The notes beneath the pieces are model-generated. The model worked only from the letters and a program-made list of their open reading frames with translations, made no database searches and was not told where the DNA came from. From a virus (taxonomy: Duplodnaviria > Caudoviricetes), in the IMG/VR virus record IMGVR_UViG_3300032277_000031, positions 1 to 36,794 of that record: a DNA stretch of 36,794 nucleotides. One strand, 5' to 3'. How positions within the stretch are numbered: position 1 is the stretch's first letter; every line of letters begins with the position of its first letter. Shown one piece after another: positions 1 through 36,794 of this stretch. Both the position numbers and the translations under genes were made by a program.

Positions 1-11
1 GGTGGAATTTG
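1..11. repeat. Left terminal copy of 11-bp repeat GGTGGAATTTG (probable cohesive end, cosN)
   Basis: Identical to 36784-36794; followed by CGCGGGT as in lambda cosN; lies about 360 bp upstream of the terminase small subunit. Confidence 0.85.
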
Positions 12-23378: not shown

Positions 23379-23824
23379 TGACAGTTTTAACCCCTAGTAA
23401 TTTAGAGAAAGTTGACTATAATCAAGAGGGCTGGCATAACATTTATAATGCTAATTGGGAAAAGTTAAACACTAAGTTTCAAGAATTATTACAAGCAACT
23501 TATAATTTTGCAAGTGAAGCCGTTATAGATGAGGCAACCGCCCTAACCGCTGCTATTGCCCCCACTCAGCAAACAACAACAGATAGCACAACGGGAACGG
23601 GTTCTTTAACTTTAAATGATGTTGGGGCAACATTTAGCCAGAGCGCAATTAATGATAATTTTGCTTCATTGGCCGCTAGGATAGCAGAAATAAAAGCAGA
23701 TATCGATAATTTAAAAACATTTGCTGATGATTCAAAAACAAGAAGTGATAACTTACAGTCAAAAATAAATGAACTGATTGCTGTTCTAAGGGAAACCGAC
23801 GGAGTAGGAGTCTTGAGTGATTAG
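23378..23824 (+). CDS. Short fibre-like virion protein
   Basis: N-terminal TP..L......W....N.N..KL pattern seen in fibre anchors; Thr-rich linker; coiled-coil C-terminus. Confidence 0.5.
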   Translation: MTVLTPSNLEKVDYNQEGWHNIYNANWEKLNTKFQELLQATYNFASEAVIDEATALTAAIAPTQQTTTDSTTGTGSLTLNDVGATFSQSAINDNFASLAARIAEIKADIDNLKTFADDSKTRSDNLQSKINELIAVLRETDGVGVLSD

Positions 23825-23888
23825 GAGTTTTTTTATGTTTTTAAGAGTAATATTAACTGACTTTATAGTAAAAAAAGGAAAAGAAGAA

Positions 23889-24182
23889 ATGAAAAACCAT
23901 TGGAAGCGGCATATTGTTTATATATTGATAACTCTTCTTGTAATTTTTGCAAGCTGTAGTTATAACGCGCCCACTGTTCAGGGACTAGAACAAAATCTAA
24001 AAAACATACAGATAATGAGGGAAAGTTTGTCAAAAAATCTTGCTGAAAAAGTAAGAAATGGAGATATTACCCAAGAGCAAGCAAGCAAAATAGAGTCATA
24101 CCATGACTCTTACGAATCACTTGCCAGAACAATGTATGATAAGCAAGTAGAGCTTAAGAAAGGTAAAAAAGAAAATGAATGA
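23889..24182 (+). CDS. Predicted lipoprotein
   Basis: Basic N-terminus, hydrophobic stretch, lipobox FAS-C (MKNHWKRHIVYILITLLVIFASC). Confidence 0.75.
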   Translation: MKNHWKRHIVYILITLLVIFASCSYNAPTVQGLEQNLKNIQIMRESLSKNLAEKVRNGDITQEQASKIESYHDSYESLARTMYDKQVELKKGKKENE

Positions 24183-24495
24183 ACAATTAGAGAGACTAGC
24201 AAAAGAAAATTATGATAATCTTTTATTAGGCATGAAAGATGTAGCGATTGATGACTTGCCAAAGATCAAGGAATTATTAGTAGACGTTGCCAGATATAAA
24301 GCACTTGAAACATTAGGCCAAGCCACCGAATTTGATATAAAAATGCTCAAGATGGCAAGTGCGGCATTATCAAGTGAGGCAATCATTTCGACATATGAGT
24401 TAACAGAAGTTGGTAACGAAGTATTGCAAGGGCTTGTTAAGTCAATCATCGGACTTGTTTTAAATTCTGCTCTAAAAAGTGTAAATATTTCTTGA
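24175..24495 (+). CDS. Hypothetical helical protein
   Basis: AAAGG RBS; overlaps lipoprotein gene end. Confidence 0.75.
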   Translation: MNEQLERLAKENYDNLLLGMKDVAIDDLPKIKELLVDVARYKALETLGQATEFDIKMLKMASAALSSEAIISTYELTEVGNEVLQGLVKSIIGLVLNSALKSVNIS

Positions 24496-24519
24496 CATTT
24501 TAAAAAATGATAATATAAT
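24492..24519 (+). promoter_or_regulatory. Sigma70-type promoter TTGACA-N16-TATAAT
   Basis: Perfect -35 (24492-24497) and -10 (24514-24519). Confidence 0.8.
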
Positions 24520-24525
24520 TTTGAA

Positions 24526-24634
24526 TAGTTTAGGAAGTGTCTAACCAACCTTTCTATGCTAAACCAAGATTTTTTGAAAAATCATTCTAAAATAGGCCGT
24601 TGCTCACTCCTTGAGCATTGGCCTATTTTTTTTT
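24526..24634 (+). ncRNA. Candidate small RNA of about 110 nt (sRNA-1)
   Basis: Consensus promoter followed by a region with no credible ORF and a strong terminator; hairpins gtttag/ctaaac and gatttt/aaaatc. Confidence 0.5.
24589..24634 (+). terminator. Rho-independent terminator
   Basis: AAAATAGGCC..TGCTCA-ctcct-TGAGCA..GGCCTATTTT followed by further Ts. Confidence 0.9.
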
Positions 24635-24735
24635 AATCATGCATTAGTAAAGATTATATGATATTATTGAGGCAATAGTAAATATATGGTTAATACTAAT
24701 ATTATCAACATGGTTTTTTCTCCTTGGGGGCAAAA

Positions 24736-25095
24736 TTGGAAAATAAAAAAAAAGAATTGATTACAGAAAAATCATATAAATTGACAGACATAAAAACAAT
24801 AGTTCTAATCTCAATGTTTTTATTGTCTGTTGTCACCATCAACACAACTATATCTTATTACCTTGTTGAGGCAAACAAACACGAGGTGACAGAAAAAGAA
24901 GTCCTGTCTATTGTTTCAGATTTAAATAAAATACTGAAAATGGTAGAAGAGCTTGAAAGACAACACGCCGATTTTTACATACATATTAATAAAAATAACC
25001 ACCTTCAAACAAAGCGATTTGATCAAGTAGTTTTACAGATGCTAGAAATCAGCATAGGTAAGGCAAAAGAAAAAAGTAAAAACAAAGAAAAATAA
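24736..25095 (+). CDS. Single-pass membrane protein with coiled coil (holin-like candidate)
   Basis: Hydrophobic IVLISMFLLSVVTINTTISYYLV then heptad-like region; TTG start after GGGGG. Confidence 0.55.
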   Translation: MENKKKELITEKSYKLTDIKTIVLISMFLLSVVTINTTISYYLVEANKHEVTEKEVLSIVSDLNKILKMVEELERQHADFYIHINKNNHLQTKRFDQVVLQMLEISIGKAKEKSKNKEK

Positions 25096-25118
25096 GGCAA
25101 AAATAAGGGGGAACATTT

Positions 25119-25355
25119 TTAAGAATCCTCCTTGTTTGCTTTTAGTGGCCGTCCAAAGTTTTTTTTATTTCTTAATTCATCTCTTGTTGCTTCTAATCTA
25201 TCCTTGCTCCACTTTCTATAAATTTTTCCTTTTATTTCTACTTCTCTACATGGTGCCGGTATTTCTCCATTTTTCATATATTTATTGGCCGTAGCCAGAG
25301 AAATATTAAGAAAAATTGCTAATTCTCGCATTCCTTCAATATGATTTTCTGACAT
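25119..25355 (-). CDS. HTH DNA-binding protein (AlpA/excisionase-like)
   Basis: MRELAIFLNISLATANKYMKNGEIPAP...RKW pattern; AAGGA RBS before ATG 25355; the only credible minus-strand gene. Confidence 0.8.
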   Translation of the reverse strand: MSENHIEGMRELAIFLNISLATANKYMKNGEIPAPCREVEIKGKIYRKWSKDRLEATRDELRNKKNFGRPLKANKEDS

Positions 25356-25370
25356 TTTTTTCCTTTTCAT

Positions 25371-25423
25371 TTGACATAATATTATTTTACTTTTATAATA
25401 GTGTTATAAAAGTCGAAAGTCAA
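25371..25423. promoter_or_regulatory. Overlapping divergent promoters with operator-like palindrome
   Basis: Plus: TTGACA(25371)-N17-TATAAT(25394). Minus: TTGACT(25423)-N17-TATTAT. Inverted repeat ACTTTTATAA-N5-TTATAAAAGT at 25389-25413. Confidence 0.8.
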
Positions 25424-25456
25424 GGTTTTATTTTTTTTAAAAAAGGCAAAATAAAT

Positions 25457-26320
25457 ATGTTTGAAAATATTTGCAATGTTGATAAATTCCTGAAAATAAT
25501 GATTTATGGCGGTGCTGGAACTGGTAAAACTCTTTTTTCTCTTGGTTTCCCTAACCCAGCAATTATAGATTTTGAGGGTGGATGTAATCATTACCATGAT
25601 ATAAATTTTGACCTATGCAAGGTTGATTCACTAAAGGGTTTTTTAAATGCTCTTGATGCATTCGAGGTTAGCGATTACGAAACATTGATCATTGACCCAA
25701 TTACCATTCTATGGGAGATTTTAAGAGAAGATTGGGCATTGAGGAAGGGAAAGGCAGAGTTAAGGCCGCAAGACTGGTTCTCCCTTAGGAAGGAGTGGCG
25801 TTCTTTAATACTCCAAAGAATTAGAAATATTGAAGCTAACGTTATAGTTATAGCAAGAGAAAAAGACGTTTTATCATACTTAAAAAACAGAGAAAAAGTA
25901 GAAATTGTTTCAGCTGGCAAAACCTTTGATGGTGAAAAAAACTTGGAATATGAATTTGATTTAGTGTTAAATTCATTTGTCGATGGGGAAAGGTTTTTCT
26001 TTAATGTTAAAAAGACAAGAATAAACAACGGTCTTTTTAAATTAAACTCTAAGGTAGAACAGAAAATAGAAAACTTCAACGAAGTAATTTTTGATAGAAA
26101 GAGAATGATTGATTTCTTAGGTGGTAACTTGAACTGGACTAATCAAATAATTCCTTTTAAGGACTGTAAAGAAAAATGGGAAGATTTAAAAGAAGATCAA
26201 TTAGTTAAAATTGCTGAACTTAAAGGTAGAAAAAATTATTTATCTACTTTAAAGGCTTTAGTGTTGATTGATGTATTAAAAGAGGGCAAAGAAGGAAAAA
26301 TAGAAGAGGTTAAAAAATGA
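25457..26320 (+). CDS. AAA_24 ATPase, Sak4-like recombinase
   Basis: KIMIYGGAGTGKT, IDFEGG, TLIIDPIT, EFDLVL motifs; adjacent to ssb; ATG 25457 after AAGG. Confidence 0.85.
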   Translation: MFENICNVDKFLKIMIYGGAGTGKTLFSLGFPNPAIIDFEGGCNHYHDINFDLCKVDSLKGFLNALDAFEVSDYETLIIDPITILWEILREDWALRKGKAELRPQDWFSLRKEWRSLILQRIRNIEANVIVIAREKDVLSYLKNREKVEIVSAGKTFDGEKNLEYEFDLVLNSFVDGERFFFNVKKTRINNGLFKLNSKVEQKIENFNEVIFDRKRMIDFLGGNLNWTNQIIPFKDCKEKWEDLKEDQLVKIAELKGRKNYLSTLKALVLIDVLKEGKEGKIEEVKK

Positions 26321-26760
26321 ATGATGTAAAATTCTCAGGAAATATTTGTAATGATATAGTGCCTAGAACTATTCCTAGTGGGGCTAGTGTTTGCAATTTT
26401 ACTATTGCAAACACCAAAAAATATAAAGACCAAAGCGGAACATTGAGAGAAACAACAACTTTCGTTGATTGTGTTTGGTGGGGAAGCTCTGCGGGGCTTG
26501 TTAAGTGGAATAAAAAAGGCTCTAAGATTCTTGTCTCTGGTGAATTGCAGCAAGATTTTTGGGAAGATCAAAACGGAAACAAGAGAAATAAACTTAAAAT
26601 TAAAGTTAATGAAATGGAATTTTTCTTTAATCTTGTTCCAGATGGTACAAGAAACAGCAACAACAATAATAATAGCGGTGGTGGAAATAATCAATTTTCA
26701 ACTCTCCCAGAGGAACATTCTTGGCAACCAGAAAGACCAATGGACGAGCCACCGTTTTAA
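26317..26760 (+). CDS. ssb: Single-stranded DNA-binding protein
   Basis: MN.V...GN, FTIA, KG..ILVSGEL, acidic C-terminal DEPPF. Confidence 0.96.
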   Translation: MNDVKFSGNICNDIVPRTIPSGASVCNFTIANTKKYKDQSGTLRETTTFVDCVWWGSSAGLVKWNKKGSKILVSGELQQDFWEDQNGNKRNKLKIKVNEMEFFFNLVPDGTRNSNNNNNSGGGNNQFSTLPEEHSWQPERPMDEPPF

Positions 26761-26782
26761 TTTTTCCACAAGGAGTTTTCTT

Positions 26783-26899
26783 TTGATTGACGAAAAGGAA
26801 ATGGAAAGGTTAAAATTAGAGATACAGAGAGAGAAGAATAAAACTCTCTCTCTGTTATTGAAAATTTATTTAACAGTAAATGAAAAGGAAAAAAAATAG
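26783..26899 (+). CDS. 38-aa hypothetical (possible small DNA-binding) protein
   Basis: AAGGAG RBS 7 nt before TTG 26783; fills the gap between ssb and the replication gene. Confidence 0.45.
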   Translation: MIDEKEMERLKLEIQREKNKTLSLLLKIYLTVNEKEKK

Positions 26900-26900
26900 A

Positions 26901-29825
26901 ATGAAAAATATAAAATCTATGGACTTAGCAAATATATTGGGGGTTGAATCCTCTACAGTTAGAAAATGGAAGCAAAAGAAACTGGTTAACCATAAAAAAG
27001 AAGGCAGAACACTTGTTATAGTGCTAGATGAAAAATTTGATAAATTCTTGTCAGGTACTAAACATATAACTAAAAAAGGGGCAATAAATGTTTTTCTTTC
27101 CAGAGAAGAAAAAAACCAAAAAGGAAATAGCAAAGAAAATACACAACTCGAAAAAGGCAAAGAAAAGGAGATCAAACAAAAAGTTGATGAAAAAGCAAAG
27201 GGTGAGGCTAAACCGGAGATAGATTTATCTCTTGTCGCACAGCAAATATTATTTTATGGCCGCTCTTGTATGTCTCAGAAAACCGTATATGATAAACCAG
27301 ATATTTTTAATGGTGATGGGGAAACCTTGATAGATCATCAATATTGCGTTCTTTCAGCGGTAAGAGGGGAAAGAAAAAAGGCAAATTTATTGTATAGGCA
27401 TGGCTTAACAATAGAGTTTGATATATTAGAAATAGAGCAATCATTAAATTTAATACATAAAGTTTTAGGCAAGGAAAATGTAAGCGTTTGTTGTCATAGC
27501 GGCAATAAATCACTTCATTTTCACTTGTCATTTTATAACCCTAGTGACAATCAAGATAAAATAGATGAGATAGCAGAAAAATTAAAAAAACTGCTTCCAT
27601 TTTGCGATTTTCCAGTTTTGACGGATAAGGTAAGGTTAGTAAGAACACCAGCGGCAATAAGGAATTGCCCCAATAAAAAAGGGCATGGTAAAAAGCAGCT
27701 AGTCGTTTTTGTCAATAAAAGATTTTGTCCTGAAGAATACAATAAAATTCTTGACTCTAAAATAAGTGGACTAGGATTTAGTGGGAGTTGCCCTAAAAAA
27801 TTAAATCATGTTTTATCTAAAATTTCCTCAAGGAAGAGCCCTACAGGAGCAGACATGAAGGAGGCCGTTTTAGAGTTTTGGAAAAACGGCTATAATAATA
27901 ACATCCTTTATTATGATATTATACAGGATTTTATACCTTATATAGGTGTTTTGTTCGAGCATATTAAAAAAGAAGAAAAACAAGAAAAAATAATTAGAAA
28001 AACAATAGTTAATGATGGCTCTACTAATTATCAAGTATGGGACTTAATAAACTGGTGTAATTTTTACTCTCAACATGGCGTAAAAGTTACAAGAGAGAGC
28101 GATGAATGGTGCGAGGGGCACACAAAAGGACTCCATAAAAATAAAAGTGGAAATTTTCATTTTCGCGCTGATACTGGAACATGGAAAGACCACAGCACAA
28201 ACGATAGTGGTAACGCTATAAAGTATTTGGTTGTTTATGGTGGGATAATGAATAAAAAAGATGCTTGGCTATATCTCCACGAGCTAGCAGGAATAGAAGC
28301 ACCTGAGCGAGATTACAAGGTATCCCTTGTAAAAAGAAAAAGAAACGATACAGGAGTCATTGAAGAGTCAAAAGTTGTTCCACCAGAGGAGACAGTAAAA
28401 ACTATTTCTGTACCTGTTGCAGTAAACCCACCTGTTAATATTACTGACATATACCAAGATGAAATTGTCCCCGAATTTGACGTGAACTCTGACTCTTTAC
28501 CAGTCGATGTTTTTCCTATATATATTAGGAAATATATAGAGGAGGCTTCTATGTCGTTTGCTAGTAGTCCAGACTTTATAGCAGTTTCCGCGCTATCTGC
28601 TTTGTCAATAGCAATAGGAAATTCGAGAAGGATTATTGTAAAAAAAGGATGGAGCGAGGGCGCGAGCCTATATTGTGCTATCGTAGCAAATCCTGGTTCG
28701 GGAAAGTCTCCAGCCATTAAAGCCGCCTTAAAACCTATCATAGACATTGATCAAGACAAGCAAAAAAAGTTTGAGGAAGATTTGAAAGAATACAGAAAGC
28801 AAATGAGAGATTTTACACTCGGTAAAATCCAAGATGAGCCAGAAAAACCCGCAAACGGCCACTTGTATACATCTAACGCGACAATAGAAAGTTTGTCAAA
28901 GATTGCATCTGAAAATCAACGGGGAATAATGCTATATAGAGATGAATTATCAGGATGGTTAACAAGTTTCGGGCAATATAAAGGGGGAAAAGGCGACGAC
29001 AAGCAGTTTTACATGGAGTGTTGGAGCGGTTCACCAATTAAGACAACACGTAAAAGCGGCGATACAATGATTGTCAGGAACCCATTTTTAACAATCATTG
29101 GTAGTTTGCAGCCAGCAACTTTACATCTATTGCAACAAAATGTAGAGGATGGTTTTTTTGATAGATTTTTGATTTCTTACCCACAAACAGAAATAAAGGA
29201 AATATCAGAAGATGTATTATCAAAAGAAACCTCTTCATTATATGAAGAAATTATATACAACTTGTATAACTTCGACGGAGTTATACAAGACGATGGAACA
29301 ATAAAACCCTTCTTTATGGAGATAGAAAAGGGTGGTTTTGCGGTTTATAAAGAATGGCATGATAAACTAATGAAAGAGTCATCAACCTTTGTTGACTGCA
29401 TGGTTAATGTATTTGCTAAGTTGAGAACTCAAGCCCTTAGAATAGCTTTGATTTTCGCATCAATAGACGGCTCTCAGAATGTTACAATTAATCATTTGAA
29501 AAGGGCTTTTAGGCTATGCGATTATTTTAAATCTCAATACAAAAAAGTTTTCCACTATACAGGCAGAACAGAGGACGAAATAAAATCTAGTCCTATAATG
29601 CGATATATGATAAAAAAAAGACTAACAGAAATGACAGTTAGAATATTAGTTAAGAATAAAATACCATCTTGTAGAAATGCGAAAATGGCTAGAGAGAACA
29701 TACAGTTTTTGGTTGACGCTGGGTTTGTTTCTTGGCATGAGGACGGCAAAAGGTCACGCTTTAAAATAAATAAAGAGACAGAAAAAACGCCTTTGTCGGG
29801 TAAATGTCGCTCAATTGTCGTGTAG
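26901..29825 (+). CDS. Replication protein: HTH + AEP primase-like + degenerate CHC2-like + DUF3987/YfjI helicase-like domains
   Basis: DLANILGVESSTVRKW HTH; IEFD, SGNKSLH, D....RLVRTP AEP motifs; ANPGSGKSP, ATIE, RDEL..W, DGFFDRFL of DUF3987. Confidence 0.85.
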   Translation: MKNIKSMDLANILGVESSTVRKWKQKKLVNHKKEGRTLVIVLDEKFDKFLSGTKHITKKGAINVFLSREEKNQKGNSKENTQLEKGKEKEIKQKVDEKAKGEAKPEIDLSLVAQQILFYGRSCMSQKTVYDKPDIFNGDGETLIDHQYCVLSAVRGERKKANLLYRHGLTIEFDILEIEQSLNLIHKVLGKENVSVCCHSGNKSLHFHLSFYNPSDNQDKIDEIAEKLKKLLPFCDFPVLTDKVRLVRTPAAIRNCPNKKGHGKKQLVVFVNKRFCPEEYNKILDSKISGLGFSGSCPKKLNHVLSKISSRKSPTGADMKEAVLEFWKNGYNNNILYYDIIQDFIPYIGVLFEHIKKEEKQEKIIRKTIVNDGSTNYQVWDLINWCNFYSQHGVKVTRESDEWCEGHTKGLHKNKSGNFHFRADTGTWKDHSTNDSGNAIKYLVVYGGIMNKKDAWLYLHELAGIEAPERDYKVSLVKRKRNDTGVIEESKVVPPEETVKTISVPVAVNPPVNITDIYQDEIVPEFDVNSDSLPVDVFPIYIRKYIEEASMSFASSPDFIAVSALSALSIAIGNSRRIIVKKGWSEGASLYCAIVANPGSGKSPAIKAALKPIIDIDQDKQKKFEEDLKEYRKQMRDFTLGKIQDEPEKPANGHLYTSNATIESLSKIASENQRGIMLYRDELSGWLTSFGQYKGGKGDDKQFYMECWSGSPIKTTRKSGDTMIVRNPFLTIIGSLQPATLHLLQQNVEDGFFDRFLISYPQTEIKEISEDVLSKETSSLYEEIIYNLYNFDGVIQDDGTIKPFFMEIEKGGFAVYKEWHDKLMKESSTFVDCMVNVFAKLRTQALRIALIFASIDGSQNVTINHLKRAFRLCDYFKSQYKKVFHYTGRTEDEIKSSPIMRYMIKKRLTEMTVRILVKNKIPSCRNAKMARENIQFLVDAGFVSWHEDGKRSRFKINKETEKTPLSGKCRSIVV

Positions 29826-30063
29826 ACAATATTGTTTGTGTTGTATATTTTAAAAAGGATTCATTGCTTTTGTCGGATTGTCGGGCGTGTCGGGTAAAGT
29901 AAGAATGTCGCTATATAATTATTAAGTCAATATATATATATATTACTAATAGCTGTTAATTACTCTTGAATGTACCCGACAACCCGACATTTTTAAATCG
30001 GCGTATATATTATAAGGGTTACAGGGGAAACCGACAAAGGCGACACGACCCGACAACCCGACA
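29794..30063. repeat. Iteron array, probable replication origin
   Basis: 7 TGTCG copies (29794-29911) and 6 inverted CGACA copies (29975-30063) flanking a TA-rich core near 29912-29960. Confidence 0.8.
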
Positions 30064-30090
30064 TTTTAAAAAGAAAGTAGGTTTTATAAA

Positions 30091-30747
30091 ATGGAAAAGG
30101 ATTTATATTATAAAGGTGTTTCGTTACCTAATCCTGATTTAGTAAAAAAGGGGTTAGGTCAATTTTTAAATAATGCAGTGGAAGAGGCTTCAAAAATGAC
30201 TAGTAAAAAAAATAGCAAATCTAAATCTAAAGCTAAAACTAAAGATGTTAAAAAAATAACTCATATTGTCGAGGATGAACAGATAATAGAGGAAGTGTTG
30301 CCAGTAGATACAGGTTTTGATATTGACTTAGAGAATGAAGTTGAAGTTGACCTAGAGAACGAAGAGACTAACAGCGATAAGGAAATAGAAAACTCAATAA
30401 ATGAAAGCATCTCTAACAGAAAAAGAGACCTTGACGAAAAGGTTTTGTCTTTAACGATGAGAGTTGCAATTTTGGATGAAATGTTGAAGGATTCAAAAAA
30501 ACTATTAAAAGTGGTTACTAAAGAGTCTTTAGAAAATAGCTCAAAGGATGGAGCAATAATAGTTATTGCCAATAATAAAGAAGAATCAAAAGTCTTGGAA
30601 ATGGCAAAGGAACAAATCAATATATTAAGGGGTTACGGACAGACCCCAATGTTTGATAATATAGAAGATGAAGTAGAGGAAGCCCAATTAACTATTGACG
30701 ATGAAGAGACAATTGATTTAGAAAAGGAAGCTAACATTGATAGTTAG
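30091..30747 (+). CDS. Acidic hypothetical protein
   Basis: GAAAGTAGGT RBS; D/E-rich disordered centre and coiled coil. Confidence 0.8.
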   Translation: MEKDLYYKGVSLPNPDLVKKGLGQFLNNAVEEASKMTSKKNSKSKSKAKTKDVKKITHIVEDEQIIEEVLPVDTGFDIDLENEVEVDLENEETNSDKEIENSINESISNRKRDLDEKVLSLTMRVAILDEMLKDSKKLLKVVTKESLENSSKDGAIIVIANNKEESKVLEMAKEQINILRGYGQTPMFDNIEDEVEEAQLTIDDEETIDLEKEANIDS

Positions 30748-30955
30748 GGGAATAACTACAACATTCTTTTGTAGCAACAACGATGATTGTTGCTATCACG
30801 ATCAAGAAGGTAAACTTTTTTCTCAAGAGTTTAACAGTAAAAATTTCAAAATTGACATCAAGAGAGCAATAAAAGAAGGCTGGGAGGTTCCCAGCGATGA
30901 ACTAGGCAAGACTTATTGTCCTTACTGCCTAGACAATAAGCAAATGGATTGTTAA
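30737..30955 (+). CDS. Small Cys-rich zinc-binding protein
   Basis: C....CC ... A.KEGW ... YCPYC pattern. Confidence 0.7.
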   Translation: MIVRGITTTFFCSNNDDCCYHDQEGKLFSQEFNSKNFKIDIKRAIKEGWEVPSDELGKTYCPYCLDNKQMDC

Positions 30956-30957
30956 AA

Positions 30958-31470
30958 ATGGATACTCTTATAATTGCCATAGACCCCGCTACACAGAAAA
31001 GCGGCTTTTGTATAGCACTTGCACAAAGAAATAACTTTTATATTATAGAAAGTGGAATAATAGAAGCCTGTAAAGATAAAAATTATCTGGTTAGACTTTG
31101 CGATATTGAGAAAAAAGTTTACTCTAAAATAGAGAATTTAAAAAAAACAAAATATTTCTCTATCTTGGAAAGACATGTTGTTATAGAAAAGGCTTATGTA
31201 GAAAAAAATGCTCATGTTGGCTTAGTGTTAGGAGCTGCAAGGGGTGTTTTTCTTGGAAGTTTTTTTAGATACAATTTCAAACCTTTTGAATATTCACCAA
31301 TGGAAATAAAAACTATATCAAATGGAGGTAGGAGTAAAAAAGATGTTGCAGAAGCAATAGAGATTTTATTTAAAAAGAAAATGAACTTTAAAAGCAATGA
31401 TGAGTCAGACGCTATTGCTATAGCAATTTATCATTGCTTGAGGCAAAAAATAATTAGATTTAAAGGGTAA
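30958..31470 (+). CDS. ruvC: Holliday junction resolvase RuvC
   Basis: IAIDP..SG, VVIEK, L..ARG, YSP.EIK, DESDAIAIA. Confidence 0.92.
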   Translation: MDTLIIAIDPATQKSGFCIALAQRNNFYIIESGIIEACKDKNYLVRLCDIEKKVYSKIENLKKTKYFSILERHVVIEKAYVEKNAHVGLVLGAARGVFLGSFFRYNFKPFEYSPMEIKTISNGGRSKKDVAEAIEILFKKKMNFKSNDESDAIAIAIYHCLRQKIIRFKG

Positions 31471-31474
31471 TAAA

Positions 31475-32173
31475 ATGATAGTTCTAGAAGGAATAATAGG
31501 TAGTGGGAAAACTACCTTGATGGAATATTTAGAAAGTTTAGTAAATTTACACATTGATAAAACCTATGTGGGGGAGAATAAAATAAAAAAATGTAGCAGG
31601 AGACCCCTTTTATTTTATGAGCCTGTAAGAGGCAACCCATATTTAGAATCTTTTTATAAGGACATGAAAAAATGGGGTCTTGAAATGCAGTTTTGGCTCA
31701 TGTCAAAGCGATTTCAAGCACACAATGAAGCAGTGAGTCAAGAGTGGTTTAATAAAATAGAAACATTCCACGACCGTAGTATTTATGGGGACTCTGTTTT
31801 CTGCGAAATGTTATATGATGCTGGCTTAATAGAAAAAAGAGGTTTTGAGAATTATAATTTAATGGCTGCTCAAATGTGTAAGATGCTCAAGGAACCAAAT
31901 TATATTTTTTTCTTAGATACTGAGCCAGAAATAGCACTAGAAAGGATTAAAGGCAGAGGTAGAGAAAGCGAGCAAGGAATATCTGTAGATTATTTAATTA
32001 GCTTGAGAAAAAAATATTATGAAAAAATAATATTTTGGAAAGAAATATACCCTCATTGCAAAATAAAAGTGGTCGAGTGGAACGACCTAAAACCAGAGCA
32101 ATTTGATTTCTCGGACGTTCATTTTAACACTGGCTATGAAAGTAAGCTAGGGGAAGGAATTTTCTATGACTAG
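31475..32173 (+). CDS. Deoxynucleoside kinase (dNK family)
   Basis: IVLEGIIGSGKTT, EPV..NPYL..FY, DRSIYGD..F, RI..RGR.SE, YL..L...Y. Confidence 0.93.
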   Translation: MIVLEGIIGSGKTTLMEYLESLVNLHIDKTYVGENKIKKCSRRPLLFYEPVRGNPYLESFYKDMKKWGLEMQFWLMSKRFQAHNEAVSQEWFNKIETFHDRSIYGDSVFCEMLYDAGLIEKRGFENYNLMAAQMCKMLKEPNYIFFLDTEPEIALERIKGRGRESEQGISVDYLISLRKKYYEKIIFWKEIYPHCKIKVVEWNDLKPEQFDFSDVHFNTGYESKLGEGIFYD

Positions 32174-32717
32174 AATTTTTTGCAATATTGGGGGTGTTAG
32201 CAGCTACAAAACAACTGGTTGCTTGAAATCATTTAAAAAGGATAATTCTGAGAAAATATTAATTAGAGTTACCACAGAAGATTTAATAGAACCTATTTTT
32301 AAAGATGTTGTAACTAAATGCGGTTCTATTAAATCTTCTGCTTTGTGGATTTCTAAAATTTCCCAAATCCCCACTGGTTATGAATGCTATTATATTGATG
32401 AAGCCCATTTTTTAGGAAATAATGATAAAATACTTGATCATGACAAGTGGACTAACTTTTTAGATAGGGTTGGAGATTCTAAAGTATATATATATGGAAT
32501 TGACTTAGATTACGAGGATAAGCCATTCAACGATTTTATAGGTAAATGTGTATTGTTTTCTGAAGATGTCACAAAAACTAAATCGAGATGTTTTATGTGT
32601 AATAAAGACGCTGGAAGGTCTTTAAAAATAAAAGGTGGAGCTGAAAAAGTAGAAGAAGAATCAGTAGCAGAGGAGATATATAAACCTATTTGCTATAAAT
32701 GTAAAAAAGAAAATTAA
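32166..32717 (+). CDS. tdk: Thymidine kinase (TK1-like), divergent
   Basis: IDEAHF, GIDLDY..KPF, CxxC...A.R, Y...CxxC; P-loop altered to GGVSSYKTT. Confidence 0.8.
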   Translation: MTRIFCNIGGVSSYKTTGCLKSFKKDNSEKILIRVTTEDLIEPIFKDVVTKCGSIKSSALWISKISQIPTGYECYYIDEAHFLGNNDKILDHDKWTNFLDRVGDSKVYIYGIDLDYEDKPFNDFIGKCVLFSEDVTKTKSRCFMCNKDAGRSLKIKGGAEKVEEESVAEEIYKPICYKCKKEN

Positions 32718-32726
32718 AAAAAGTTT

Positions 32727-32787
32727 GCTGTAAGCCGTCTATATCCTGTTAGAAATGCTTGTATGATCTGGTTTACAGCTTTTTTTT
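32727..32787 (+). terminator. Terminator-like stem with long loop
   Basis: GCTGTAAGCC...GGTTTACAGC followed by T8. Confidence 0.65.
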
Positions 32788-32806
32788 GTTTTTTTTTATT
32801 TTGTGT

Positions 32807-32835
32807 TTGACTTTTGTATTAGAAAATTGTAATAT
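32807..32835 (+). promoter_or_regulatory. Sigma70-type promoter TTGACT-N17-TAATAT
   Basis: Lies after the terminator and upstream of the small-ORF cluster. Confidence 0.6.
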
Positions 32836-32889
32836 ATAAGCATGTTAGAAAATAAGCCGATTATAAAAAAATGATCAAGGGGTTTTAAT

Positions 32890-33387
32890 ATGTTTTTATT
32901 CACTGAAGAAGTTCACCAGCTAGCGCAAGAATATTATTGGATTAATGGTTTGCGCTCTGTTATGAGATATTGCGACTGCGTTGCATTGGCAATGGCAGAC
33001 TTGAAAGAAGATTTGAGTAATAAAGATTATTGTTATGATCAAATGTTTTCTCGGGATTCGGTTATTTATGCAACTGGCAATTTAAATGTAGAGGTTGGTA
33101 TTAATTCTTTTAGCTTCTCTAGTATTATAGAAGCATCTCTTAAGCTACTAGAAACTAAAATTAAAAAAGATACTGTGTATAATGAAACATTTAGTCATCT
33201 AAAAGACTATTTTAGTAATTTTTTTGCAGATATTTTATTGACCGCAATAAAAAGAAATATAAATAGGTCTGAATTAGTGAATAAAATAATTAAAAGTCCT
33301 GTTTTTATGATAGGTAACAAAACGTTAGATGATTTACTAAAAATAATATGTGTAAATAGTGAGGATTACAAAAATGAAAAATACTAG
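32890..33387 (+). CDS. Hypothetical protein
   Basis: AAGGGG RBS; 165-aa ORF. Confidence 0.7.
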   Translation: MFLFTEEVHQLAQEYYWINGLRSVMRYCDCVALAMADLKEDLSNKDYCYDQMFSRDSVIYATGNLNVEVGINSFSFSSIIEASLKLLETKIKKDTVYNETFSHLKDYFSNFFADILLTAIKRNINRSELVNKIIKSPVFMIGNKTLDDLLKIICVNSEDYKNEKY

Positions 33388-33541
33388 TAACGTAGAGCCT
33401 AATACATTGGTTTATGCTGGCTATTCCTATTGTAATAGCAAAGTCAAATATTGCTGCTCTACTACTGGAATGCTGCATTATTACAACCAAAATAAAAAAA
33501 TGCAGGGTATGCCTTGCCAATGCTGTAAAGGAAAAAAATAA
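33374..33541 (+). CDS. Small Cys-rich hypothetical protein
   Basis: GAGG RBS; CC and CxCC clusters; stop overlaps next ATG. Confidence 0.55.
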   Translation: MKNTSNVEPNTLVYAGYSYCNSKVKYCCSTTGMLHYYNQNKKMQGMPCQCCKGKK

Positions 33542-33795
33542 TGGAAAATCTTTTGTTGTTATTGCGTCCTGCTCTTATTAATAAGCATGAAACGCTGAAA
33601 AGATTTATTATTACTGCAATATGTGGAATGGAAATAGTAATTAAAATAAAAGATGATATGCAATATGGTGTTCTTGATTCTGCATGTTTCAATGCTAATA
33701 CTATAAGTGTAAAAATTGATGGAAAAATCCAAAAATATATATTTAACGGAATAGATGAAATAATAATTTTTAATCATGGGGTCGATAATGTCTAA
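33541..33795 (+). CDS. Hypothetical protein, possible Sm/SH3-like beta barrel
   Basis: Helix then GMEIVIKIKDD..YGVL...ISVKID...IDEIII. Confidence 0.6.
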   Translation: MENLLLLLRPALINKHETLKRFIITAICGMEIVIKIKDDMQYGVLDSACFNANTISVKIDGKIQKYIFNGIDEIIIFNHGVDNV

Positions 33796-34246
33796 AGACA
33801 AGAAAAAAAACTTTAGCGTTTATCTAAGTGAGATGCTAGTAGAAAACCTAAAAAAAGACAGCGATAAGGGATTGTCCCAAATAATAAATGAAAAATTAGC
33901 GATTATCTATGATAGAAAATGCAGATTAGAGCGAATTTTATCGACCTATACATCTGTAAGGGATATTAAAGGAAATGTAGTCGCTTGCGTAAAAGGTAGC
34001 ACTAATTTAAAGAGCCTGTTAATTGATGATCAAGAAGATGATTTTTATTGTGGTTTAACTTCTGTTGATAATAAATTTATTTATATACATGGACATCTTT
34101 ATGCTGATTTTTTTACAGCGCAATTTATTACAAATGAAGCAGCAGTGGAAAAAATTATAGAATATAATGCTTATCATCTATTGAACGACAAGAGATTTGA
34201 TTTGCTTGTTGAGCTTCTGCAAAATAGGGTAACAATGGAGGATTAA
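33788..34246 (+). CDS. Hypothetical protein with N-terminal ribbon-helix-helix-like motif
   Basis: KNFSVYLSEMLVENLKK...LSQIINEKL. Confidence 0.6.
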   Translation: MSKDKKKNFSVYLSEMLVENLKKDSDKGLSQIINEKLAIIYDRKCRLERILSTYTSVRDIKGNVVACVKGSTNLKSLLIDDQEDDFYCGLTSVDNKFIYIHGHLYADFFTAQFITNEAAVEKIIEYNAYHLLNDKRFDLLVELLQNRVTMED

Positions 34247-34250
34247 ATCA

Positions 34251-34529
34251 GTGAGTAATGAATATAATGATTATGTTAATGAAAAAATTTGTAAATTAAA
34301 AGAAGTATTGATAGAAAAATTTCCTAATGAAATTGTAGAAATAGAAAAAACTGTAGATTTCTATAAAGATAATAGAGATAAAATAAAAATTGGTAGTTTT
34401 GCTTTATCATCAAGAAAAATTGGAGTTATTACAAAGTATATAAAACAGAAAAGTAATGGTGAAAAGTTTAATACTGTTGCTTATAATTTTTTTACATGGA
34501 ATAAAAAATATATTGAAAGCCAAGTATGA
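34251..34529 (+). CDS. Hypothetical protein
   Basis: GGAGG RBS, GTG start. Confidence 0.7.
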   Translation: MSNEYNDYVNEKICKLKEVLIEKFPNEIVEIEKTVDFYKDNRDKIKIGSFALSSRKIGVITKYIKQKSNGEKFNTVAYNFFTWNKKYIESQV

Positions 34530-34681
34530 TTATTATTGAAGTAAGGATAGAAAAATTAATAAATCAAGGCCATCCTAGACATTGCGCAACAAGAATTGTT
34601 AGCGGTGATGGCCTTTGTGAATGCGGTAATTTTTACTACAATATGAGAGGGGAATTAGTAAAAATAGGAGATAGCCAATGA
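34526..34681 (+). CDS. 51-aa His/Cys mini-protein
   Basis: Read by hand: MIIIEVRIEKLINQGHPRHCATRIVSGDGLCECGNFYYNMRGELVKIGDSQ; ATGA overlaps at both ends. Confidence 0.65.
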   Translation: MIIIEVRIEKLINQGHPRHCATRIVSGDGLCECGNFYYNMRGELVKIGDSQ

Positions 34682-34824
34682 AATCATATCTCCTTATGGC
34701 TTACGCTATAGCAGAAATTGACAAATTTAATGATAATTTATTAAGGGGTAAAAGTAAACATCCAAAGCCTAGAAAAAGTGGTAAGATAAAAAATAAAATT
34801 CGTAGTAGAAGGAAAAAAAAATAG
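34678..34824 (+). CDS. 48-aa protein with strongly basic C-terminus
   Basis: AGGAG RBS; ends RGKSKHPKPRKSGKIKNKIRSRRKKK. Confidence 0.65.
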   Translation: MKSYLLMAYAIAEIDKFNDNLLRGKSKHPKPRKSGKIKNKIRSRRKKK

Positions 34825-34845
34825 GGGTAATCAGCGTTTTACCCC
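34813..34845 (-). terminator. Hairpin with T-tract on the minus strand
   Basis: GGGGTAA-N8-TTACCCC with A9 on its left side. Confidence 0.5.
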
Positions 34846-34964
34846 AATAAAAATAAGGAAAAATCATGATATATATAAAACAACCTGAAGTAAAGAAAAA
34901 AAATAGACAAAGATATAACAAAAATATTGCAATTAGTATTAATTAAAAAGAAAGTTGGTAAAAA

Positions 34965-35234
34965 ATGATTAGTAAAACATTTGTTGTAACTGATATGGTT
35001 CAAGAATCAGAAAAAAAACAAGTATTAGAGCAAATTATGGATTTTTTAGGGTGTACTGTAAAAGTATTATTTCATGGTGCATCCTTGGAAATTTTCCTTA
35101 CTCTTACAGGAATAGAGGATGATATATTAGTCTTTAAATATGAATCATTAGAAATAGAAAAAAGAGTTAGTATTAACGATGTAAAAGAACTTTCTATTGC
35201 AAAGTTTATAGTTTTTGAAGATGAGGAAGAATAA
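34965..35234 (+). CDS. Hypothetical protein, possible Sm/LSm-like fold
   Basis: Helix then FLGCTVKVLF...LTLTGIEDDILVF...VSINDVKELSI. Confidence 0.65.
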   Translation: MISKTFVVTDMVQESEKKQVLEQIMDFLGCTVKVLFHGASLEIFLTLTGIEDDILVFKYESLEIEKRVSINDVKELSIAKFIVFEDEEE

Positions 35235-35237
35235 CAA

Positions 35238-35354
35238 ATGGATTTAATATGTGAGTATTGCGGGAAGCTTGATAACCAGTGTTTTTATAATGAAAGAGAC
35301 TTTTTAACTTGTTCTGATTGCCATTACAATCCTTATGATTTTTATTTGGGGTAG
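35238..35354 (+). CDS. 38-aa zinc-finger mini-protein (CxxC...CxxC)
   Basis: Read by hand: MDLICEYCGKLDNQCFYNERDFLTCSDCHYNPYDFYLG; GAGG RBS. Confidence 0.65.
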   Translation: MDLICEYCGKLDNQCFYNERDFLTCSDCHYNPYDFYLG

Positions 35355-35359
35355 AACAG

Positions 35360-35626
35360 ATGGGTGTATTATTTCTGGAAATAGAACCTCAGCTTGCAAA
35401 AACAGAGGTTGATTTAAAAAAAATGTCAATATTGCTAGAAAAAATAAAGAAGAAAACTGTTTTGGTTGAATTGAAAAATGACAAATCTCTTCATGTAGTT
35501 GATTTTTTATTTTACGATGAAGAGAAATTCTTTTTTTCTTTAGGGTATCTTGGAATTACAGAGGAAAAAGAAGTTCCCTTAAGTGAAGTTGAAAAAATAC
35601 AGTATAGCGATAGAATAACGGGGTAA
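35360..35626 (+). CDS. Hypothetical protein, possible Sm/LSm-like fold
   Basis: LLEKIKKKTVLVELKND...F..YD....VPLSEVEKI resembles the Sm1/Sm2 pattern. Confidence 0.65.
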   Translation: MGVLFLEIEPQLAKTEVDLKKMSILLEKIKKKTVLVELKNDKSLHVVDFLFYDEEKFFFSLGYLGITEEKEVPLSEVEKIQYSDRITG

Positions 35627-35628
35627 AC

Positions 35629-35668
35629 AAAAAAAAGGTGGCAATAGCAAGGGAGTTATTGCCACCTT
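35629..35668 (-). terminator. Rho-independent terminator on minus strand
   Basis: AAGGTGGCAATAGC-aaggga-GTTATTGCCACCTT stem with A-tract on the left side only. Confidence 0.75.
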
Positions 35669-35686
35669 CCGAAAGTAGGTTTTAAG
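35629..35686 (-). ncRNA. Candidate small RNA of about 58 nt (sRNA-2)
   Basis: Minus promoter TTGACT(35720)-N16-TAAAAT(35698) reading into the minus-strand terminator; no ORF. Confidence 0.45.
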
Positions 35687-35738
35687 TAAGAAATTTTACT
35701 ATAAAATAATATTAAGTCAATAAGAAAGTTGGTAAAAA

Positions 35739-35969
35739 ATGTCAGTTAAAAAATGTGTTAGTTGCTGGTGTCGTGTAGTAAAAAAAAGCGGTCTTTGCGT
35801 GAGATGCGAACAAATAAACAATGCTAATCTAATTATTAATATGGAGCGTAAAGGGCATGGTTTACACTGCATTAAAAAGTTTTTAGAAAATAGAAAATCA
35901 AATTGCGATTCATCATGCACAGCTTACCATGTAAATAGAAGATCATCCAGTATAGGAGCTAATAAATAA
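35739..35969 (+). CDS. Cys-rich zinc-binding hypothetical protein
   Basis: CxxC...CxxC...HC...CxxxCxxxH; AGAAAGTTGGT RBS. Confidence 0.65.
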   Translation: MSVKKCVSCWCRVVKKSGLCVRCEQINNANLIINMERKGHGLHCIKKFLENRKSNCDSSCTAYHVNRRSSSIGANK

Positions 35970-36774: not shown

Positions 36775-36794
36775 TTCTACTGGGGTGGAATTTG
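36753..36794 (+). other. cosQ-like element AGGTTCT and right terminal copy of the cohesive-end sequence
   Basis: AGGTTCT at 36753-36759, 23-nt spacer, then GGGTGGAATTTG. Confidence 0.75.

What the first reader, a model, noticed from the sequence alone, without database searches (positions are those of the whole stretch)
24492..35720. Possible phage sRNA + Sm-like protein system for translational control (anti-Shine-Dalgarno mimic RNAs)
Seen: two clear and one weaker short units share one design, a sigma70 promoter, a short pyrimidine-rich 5' segment, then an intrinsic terminator (24526-24634 plus; 35629-35686 minus; 34813-34860 minus). Their 5' segments are ACCAACCUUUCU, ACCUACUUUC and UCCUUAU; the two clear units also have CUCCU / UCCCUU terminator loops. 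Known: the 16S rRNA 3' tail is about ACCUCCUUUCU in many bacteria, and Sm-fold proteins such as Hfq chaperone sRNA-mRNA pairing. Seen: three small proteins with an Sm-like pattern are encoded nearby, two of them next to the minus-strand units. Inference: the phage may use RBS-occluding or 16S-tail-mimic RNAs, possibly with its own chaperones, to time its genes or suppress host translation. The link between the RNAs and the proteins is only positional.
Basis: partly seen in the sequence, partly recalled or inferred. Interest (0 to 1): 0.78.

Follow-up and report, generated by a model that had tools for sequence, protein, structure and literature searches.

The report
Phage small RNA blocking own gene
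An uncultured phage carries a predicted 58-base RNA gene whose free end exactly mirrors the ribosome-landing site of one phage gene 5.6 kb away, so it likely switches that gene off, while the proposed link to three nearby proteins with predicted Hfq-like folds is still only positional.

Summary
The three promoter-short RNA-terminator layouts exist, but they are not one design. Unit 2 (35686-35629, minus) has an unpaired 5' end that is an exact 14-nt complement of the ribosome-binding site of ORF 30091, ending 4 nt before its start codon. It is the best of 50 start regions (-19.0 kcal/mol), and nulls reach this in about 0.1-0.3% of trials. Its promoter shares 18 of 19 bases with the main early promoter. 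It likely delays translation of one phage gene, c4-RNA style, and is not a general 16S-tail mimic. Unit 1 has a perfect promoter and strong terminator, but its pyrimidine segment is mostly paired in a hairpin and its best target match is chance-level. Unit 3 is weak. Proteins 33541 and 35360 have predicted Sm/SH3-type barrels (weak scores, no net positive charge); 34965 is inconclusive. Three LSm-like early proteins are already reported in T4. No close relative and no RNA run was found, so conservation and expression are untested. This scan's notes report similar anti-RBS RNAs in other phages (unchecked).

The parts
35629..35686 (-). Unit 2: predicted 58-nt small RNA with a free 5' seed, a 14-bp terminator stem and a U tract
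35671..35684 (-). Unit 2 seed, 14-nt exact complement of the RBS of ORF 30091
35693..35720 (-). Unit 2 promoter (10/12); 35702-35720 is 18/19 identical to the early promoter at 25371
   Evidence: (I22)
30073..30086 (+). Predicted target: RBS of ORF 30091, ending 4 nt before the ATG
30091..30747 (+). Predicted target gene, 218 aa, acidic (net -21), no family or homologue found; first gene of the block with RuvC, dNK and TK
24492..24519 (+). Unit 1 promoter, 12/12 consensus
24526..24634 (+). Unit 1: predicted 109-nt three-hairpin RNA; its terminator may also end the structural operon; target not identified
24544..24555 (+). Unit 1 pyrimidine segment, mostly paired; 11-bp bulged complement of the RBSs of 34965 and 35739, at chance level
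34813..34894 (-). Unit 3: weak promoter (34894-34866), 48-nt unit and 7-bp terminator converging on the 3' end of ORF 34678
34948..34967 (+). Start region of ORF 34965, identical over 20 nt to 35722-35741
35722..35741 (+). Start region of ORF 35739, back to back with the unit 2 promoter
25371..25399 (+). Main early promoter, 12/12, upstream of the AAA_24, SSB and DUF3987 genes
25119..25370 (-). Excisionase/Cro-like HTH gene, candidate regulator of the shared promoter block
   Evidence: HTH_17 E 0.0018, below curated cut-off; phrog_66 E 2e-4
29897..29930 (-). Third, diverged copy of the promoter block, without a consensus -10, upstream of ORF 30091
33541..33795 (+). 84-aa protein, predicted Sm-like barrel; best solved matches are Hfq/Sm at weak scores
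35360..35626 (+). 88-aa protein, predicted Sm/SH3-type barrel
34965..35234 (+). 89-aa acidic protein, helix followed by strands; fold inconclusive

Best explanation
Unit 2 is likely a free-standing, trans-acting antisense small RNA whose unpaired 5' end would pair over 14 bases with the ribosome-binding site of phage ORF 30091 and block its translation. Shown in the sequence: the promoter-like site, the free seed, the terminator, the exact complement, and a promoter block shared with the main early promoter. Inferred: the RNA is made early together with the replication genes and holds back ORF 30091 and, by translational coupling, the RuvC/dNK/TK block. Repression would lift when the small HTH protein (25119-25370) shuts both promoters, which makes the RNA a delay timer. 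A perfect 14-bp duplex with an open seed would probably need no chaperone. Unit 1 is probably a separately transcribed short RNA or attenuated leader with no target shown. Unit 3 is probably a weaker antisense/terminator element. [quoted passage not shown]
For: The 14-mer occurs exactly twice in the window, at 30073 and 35671 (2 matches at up to 1 mismatch; shuffle mean 0.06). Seed duplex -19.0 kcal/mol, next best -11.5 among 50 start regions that I picked from the ORF list, and the best non-self site in a genome-wide scan of both strands. Full-length co-folding gives -13.7 against a mean of -4.7, sd 2.2; opening costs 0.06 kcal/mol for the seed and 2.6-3.7 for the target. The result holds for six start-site choices. 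Nulls for a 14-nt or longer exact complement to any of the 50 start regions: 99 of 73,554 genomic 17-mers, 7 of 100,000 shuffles, 79 of 100,000 anti-SD-like seeds. Energy nulls: 1 of 300, 2 of 800 and 1 of 800. The U tract is on the minus strand, where no credible gene lies upstream. The promoter is 18/19 identical to P25371.
Against: No covariation: no close relative was found (nearest capsid proteins 23-38% identical; 0 matches to the unit 2 pattern in viral contigs). Exact 14-mer repeats are common in this AT-rich genome (150 repeated 14-mers), and 17 distinct places show a 14-nt or longer trans complement to a start region, unit 2 among them, so only the position makes the match unusual. 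Three units were examined after the fact, which raises the chance figure about threefold. The region around 29897-30091 shares other sequence blocks with 35671-35741, so the match may be a duplication relic. The RBS of 30091 is also the best partner of the canonical 16S tail, so part of the match is expected. The function of 30091 is unknown, and the regulator and timing are inference.
Confidence: 0.5

Rival explanations
1. Units 2 and 3 are only reverse-strand terminators or cis-antisense elements in gene gaps, and the 14-nt match is chance or the remnant of a duplicated regulatory cassette.
For: The layout gene end, reverse terminator, 20 nt, -10 box, identical 20-nt start region occurs twice. 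A homologous promoter block lies at 29897-29930 near the target. Repeated 14-mers are common. Matches of 9-10/12 to the promoter consensus are near chance.
Against: The copy lies in the free 5' end of the unit, in antisense orientation, without mismatch, while the neighbouring duplicated block has drifted. Nulls are 0.1-0.3%.
Confidence: 0.22
2. One reading: the RNAs are general anti-Shine-Dalgarno mimics that occlude many phage and host RBSs, helped by phage Sm-fold chaperones.
For: Both strong terminators have C-rich loops; such motifs occur in 1.7-3.8% of random 5-8-nt stretches of this genome. Unpaired UCCC motifs block ribosome binding in S. aureus RsaE (PMC2790875, abstract). Unit 1 pairs about as well with a consensus SD (-11.6) as with its best phage RBS (-12.2). 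Hfq/Sm chains head the fold matches of 33541.
Against: Both seeds depart from the 16S tail inside the core and pair 6-7 kcal/mol worse than the tail with a consensus SD. Unit 1's segment costs 6.5 kcal/mol to open. The proteins have net charges -1, -10 and -4. The same fold class includes RimP-C, BPL_C, WYL and Rof.
Confidence: 0.1
3. The repeated motif at 30073, 34950, 35671 and 35724 is a DNA site for a phage regulator, and the pairing is incidental.
For: Four near-identical copies, all on the plus strand; two flank the unit 2 promoter 53 bp apart.
Against: Three of the four lie at Shine-Dalgarno distance from a start codon, and the fourth is antisense within the RNA's free end. The motif is not palindromic, and a separate operator-like block already lies in the promoter spacer.
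Confidence: 0.1
4. For unit 1 only, and compatible with the best explanation: it is a lambda pR'/6S-like short transcript from a strong promoter, whose terminator must be read through to express the downstream membrane-protein gene 24724, and which also ends the structural operon.
For: Perfect promoter and the strongest terminator listed; one sense gene follows; no target above chance (185 of 300 shuffles do as well). Lambda 6S RNA ends at a Q-antiterminated terminator (bioRxiv 10.1101/2024.10.31.621285, passages).
Against: No Q-like antiterminator was recognised among the proteins scanned. A shortened form lacking the first 9-13 nt would pair with both twin RBSs at -11 to -12 kcal/mol, so a processed antisense role is not excluded.
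Confidence: 0.4

Closest known systems
c4 antisense RNA of phages P1 and P7 (Citron and Schuster 1990, as described in review PMC12197685, section 7 read; Rfam RF01695 listed in PMC2864571, passages)
   Same: A phage RNA that pairs with a phage mRNA around the ribosome-binding site and blocks translation.
   Different: No Rfam match. The pairing bases are a free 5' tail and not loops. The target lies 5.6 kb away and is not a recognisable antirepressor. No integrase or CI-type repressor was recognised in this genome. That c4 is processed from the operon it controls is recalled, not read here.
T4 LSm-like early proteins GoF, MotB.1, Frd.2 (PMC12152347; abstract and sections 2.2 and 3 read)
   Same: Three small early phage proteins of dissimilar sequence with a predicted LSm-like barrel; function and ring formation not shown there either.
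   Different: The proteins here are single-domain (84-89 aa) with a predicted N-terminal helix, have no detected homologues, and lie next to candidate small RNA genes.
S. aureus RsaE and related C-rich-motif sRNAs (PMC2790875, abstract read)
   Same: Unpaired C-rich motifs aimed at Shine-Dalgarno sequences; expression independent of Hfq.
   Different: Here the strong match is a specific 14-nt seed; the C-rich loops are short terminator loops with no tested target.
Lambda 6S, PreS/LPR1, LPR2 and VP882 VpdS (bioRxiv 10.1101/2024.10.31.621285 and PMC12197685, passages)
   Same: Short phage RNAs ending in intrinsic terminators; 6S resembles unit 1 in layout.
   Different: Those use host Hfq and PreS acts mainly on host mRNAs; no sequence comparison with them was run.

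Membership tests
c4 antisense RNA (RF01695) | Match to the Rfam covariance model | tested here: not met
   cmscan of the whole window to E 5 gave 2 weak unrelated matches, none in the units
c4 antisense RNA (RF01695) | Complementarity to a phage mRNA around its RBS | tested here: met
   14-nt exact complement for unit 2; not above chance for units 1 and 3
c4 antisense RNA (RF01695) | Target is an antirepressor message in an immunity region | tested here: inconclusive
   ORF 30091 has no family match or homologue
Trans-encoded base-pairing sRNA | Own promoter and intrinsic terminator in a gene gap | tested here: met
   Sequence patterns only
Trans-encoded base-pairing sRNA | Discrete transcript and seed-dependent regulation | not testable with these tools
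   No RNA holder listed
Trans-encoded base-pairing sRNA | Conserved or covarying seed and target | tested here: inconclusive
   No close relatives found
Sm/Lsm/Hfq proteins | Sm fold: helix plus bent five-stranded antiparallel sheet | tested here: inconclusive
   33541: Atlas pTM 0.74, own model pLDDT 63.6, Foldseek best Hfq E 0.092, VIA best Z 6.0 (rmsd 2.7, 61 aligned). 35360: TM 0.61-0.68 to RimP-C, WYL, LSM and unnamed clusters. 34965: pLDDT 53.2, best Z 7.9 to an unrelated chain. Likely for two, not separable from other SH3-type barrels.
Sm/Lsm/Hfq proteins | Profile match (Pfam LSM or Hfq) | tested here: not met
   No such family at E up to 1 for any of the three; none in PHROGs or NCBIfam
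Sm/Lsm/Hfq proteins | Cyclic oligomer through the beta4-beta5 interface (PMC3710371) | not tested
Sm/Lsm/Hfq proteins | RNA-binding surface | tested here: inconclusive
   Net charge -1, -10, -4, with 2, 1 and 1 arginines. The Hfq YKH and Sm RG motifs (recalled) are not seen by eye. 33541 has a glycine in strand 2 as in Sm proteins (PMC3710371 passage). Binding itself was not tested.

The most novel reading that the evidence does not exclude
The phage carries a self-contained RNA control circuit: two or three small RNAs, each tuned to a non-consensus Shine-Dalgarno of a chosen phage gene (unit 2 to 30091, unit 1 to 34965 and 35739, unit 3 to 35238), with phage-encoded Sm-fold proteins that open unit 1's hairpin and are themselves under feedback from it, independent of host Hfq.
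Probability: 0.07. Interest if true: 0.8.

Novelty: new variant of a known kind. Interest (0 to 1): 0.4.

Why it matters
If confirmed, a phage with no recognisable integrase or CI repressor times one of its own gene blocks with a minimal 58-nt RNA under early-promoter control. That would extend c4-type control beyond immunity regions and give a compact seed-target pair that is easy to test. A phage-encoded sRNA chaperone would matter far more, but nothing here shows one. The lack of relatives makes this case weaker than similar candidates noted elsewhere in the scan.

Tried and rejected
Unit 1 to twin RBSs 34965/35739: top 2 of 50 for the bare seed, but 185 of 300 shuffles do as well, and the full-length RNA does not place them in its top 5; rejected as evidence. 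Unit 3 to ORF 35238: rank 1 of 50, G-U rich, 57 of 300 shuffles do as well. Rfam: nothing in the units. Relatives: capsid and terminase in viral contigs and portal in genome contigs gave none. dNK in metagenome contigs gave one 100% locus of the same length (L121, probably this DNA) and others at 40% or less. A capsid alignment gave 80 kept loci at 35% or less. 157 fetched loci had no tblastn hit at E 0.01 to nine early proteins and only 14-18-nt chance matches to the units. Of about 590 viral stretches with unit 1's 14-mer, 120 were read; none had a promoter or similar flanks. 18 viral matches to the promoter block showed no similar unit by eye. Homologue searches for 30091, 35360 and 33541 returned only the query, plus two multi-repeat proteins for 33541. 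34965 and 35360 do not align; the three-way alignment was out of register and not used. PDB sequence searches gave nothing below E 0.05; viral Foldseek nothing at E 0.001. Sequencing runs: no RNA holder listed; contigs of two DNA runs showed no substitutions. Host not identified: SSB relatives only 37-39%, so the host's 16S tail is unknown. Literature: 9 searches answered. Their listings showed no paper on a phage sRNA working with a phage-encoded Sm protein. The library lacks most subscription journals, and no supplements were read.
Full report
Setting. The window is a single 36,794-base contig, 33% G+C, with a lambda-type terminase, portal, S49 protease and major capsid, and an early region with AAA_24, SSB, DUF3987, RuvC, dNK and TK. 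The same 11 bases open and close it next to the small terminase, which suggests cohesive ends and a complete genome (inference). No integrase or CI-type repressor was recognised among the ORFs scanned. The listed holders are microbial-mat DNA runs. The phage has no close relative in the collections searched: best terminase 28.7%, best capsid 38%.

The three units. Unit 1 has one of the genome's two perfect sigma70 promoters and folds into three hairpins, the last a terminator (z -6.5). Its pyrimidine segment lies at positions 19-30, and 8 of 12 bases are paired; opening costs 6.5 kcal/mol. Unit 2 has a 10/12 promoter, 16 free bases, a 14-bp stem and a U tract. Unit 3 has a 9/12 promoter and a 7-bp stem. 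Units 2 and 3 both have 20 nt between the -10 box and the stem, and both sit back to back with a gene bearing the same 20-nt start region.

The main result. The free 5' end of unit 2 (35684-35671) is the exact complement of 30073-30086, the ribosome-binding site of ORF 30091. The 14-mer has only these two copies, even allowing one mismatch. The duplex is -19.0 kcal/mol against -11.5 for the next of 50 start regions, and it is the best non-self site on either strand. With full folding it is -13.7 against a mean of -4.7, sd 2.2, stable to the start site chosen. Chance estimates: 99 of 73,554 genomic 17-mers, 7 of 100,000 shuffles and 79 of 100,000 anti-SD-like seeds reach 14 nt; 1 of 300, 2 of 800 and 1 of 800 reach the energy. 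Against this, 150 14-mers are repeated in the genome, three units were tried, and the start regions were my own choice from the ORF list.

Specific or general. The seed departs from the 16S tail quoted in the finding inside the core, and that change matches the 30091 site. With a consensus SD the seeds give -10.5, -11.6 and -7.4 kcal/mol against -17.6 for the tail. This argues for one tuned target for unit 2. Two facts keep the general reading alive. The RBSs of 30091, 34965 and 35739 rank first, third and fourth of 50 as partners of the canonical tail. Both terminator loops are C-rich, a feature found in 1.7-3.8% of random 5-8-nt stretches and used against SDs by S. aureus RsaE (PMC2790875, abstract). 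The host and its true 16S tail are unknown.

Units 1 and 3. Unit 1's bare segment ranks the twin start regions 34965 and 35739 first, but 185 of 300 shuffles do as well and the folded RNA binds them at only about -5 kcal/mol; a form lacking the first 9-13 bases reaches -11 to -12. Unit 3's best partner, the small ORF at 35238, is matched by 57 of 300 shuffles. Neither counts as evidence. Unit 1 is as easily read as a lambda 6S-like short transcript before gene 24724 (bioRxiv 10.1101/2024.10.31.621285, passages).

Control of unit 2. Its promoter shares 18 of 19 bases with the early promoter at 25371, and a diverged third copy lies at 29897-29930. The shared spacer has a palindromic core, and a small HTH gene starts beside it. 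I infer a common operator: the RNA is made with the replication genes and delays ORF 30091 and its overlapping downstream genes until the HTH protein closes both promoters. None of this is shown. The third copy also supports the rival view that these cassettes arose by duplication.

The proteins. For 33541 the Atlas model has pTM 0.74 and neighbours in RimP-C, BPL_C and unnamed clusters. My single-sequence model (pLDDT 63.6) ranks Hfq first in Foldseek at E 0.092 and an archaeal Sm first in VIA-align at Z 6.0, below the level the tool calls distinctive. For 35360 the Atlas model (pTM 0.69) matches RimP-C, WYL and LSM clusters at TM 0.61-0.68. For 34965 the model is poor (pLDDT 53.2) and its matches uninformative. 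Net charges are -1, -10 and -4. No Pfam LSM or Hfq hit was found, and ring formation could not be tested. [quoted passage not shown] The trio is thus not surprising by itself.

Comparison and verdict. Unit 2 would work like c4 RNA of P1/P7 (PMC12197685, section 7) but is not an Rfam c4 member. This scan's notes list eight similar anti-RBS candidates in other phages, some said to covary; I formed my reading before that look-up and did not check those notes. Look-ups by sequence found no relative of units 1 or 2. Verdict: a credible, testable single-target antisense RNA candidate (about 50%), with no expression or conservation data; the chaperone and host-shutoff ideas are unsupported.

Noticed in passing
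window 1-11 and 36784-36794: Identical 11-nt ends beside the small terminase, suggesting cohesive ends and a complete genome; no integrase or CI-type repressor recognised.
   Followed up: partly
window 29794-30063 and 564-588: Short G+C-rich repeats in both orientations between the DUF3987 gene and ORF 30091, a likely replication origin; the same 7-mer recurs three times inside the small terminase gene.
   Followed up: no
window 34664-34700 and ORF 34678-34824: The Shine-Dalgarno of a 48-aa protein with a basic tail is locked in a hairpin with its own first codons, and unit 3 converges on the gene's 3' end, a layout recalling type I toxin-antitoxin pairs (recalled); no membrane helix is evident.
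   Followed up: no
window 35238-35354: 38-aa ORF with two CxxC motifs between ORFs 34965 and 35360, below the ORF-list cut-off.
   Followed up: partly
window 35722-35741, minus strand: Any longer antisense transcript running into unit 2 from the right would also carry a 20-nt exact complement of the start regions of 34965 and 35739.
   Followed up: no
window 23817-25095: Three small genes around unit 1, two with hydrophobic segments, in the usual lysis position; no endolysin was recognised among the proteins scanned.
   Followed up: no
window 32275-32340: Perfect 19-nt inverted repeat with a 28-nt gap inside the TK gene.
   Followed up: no
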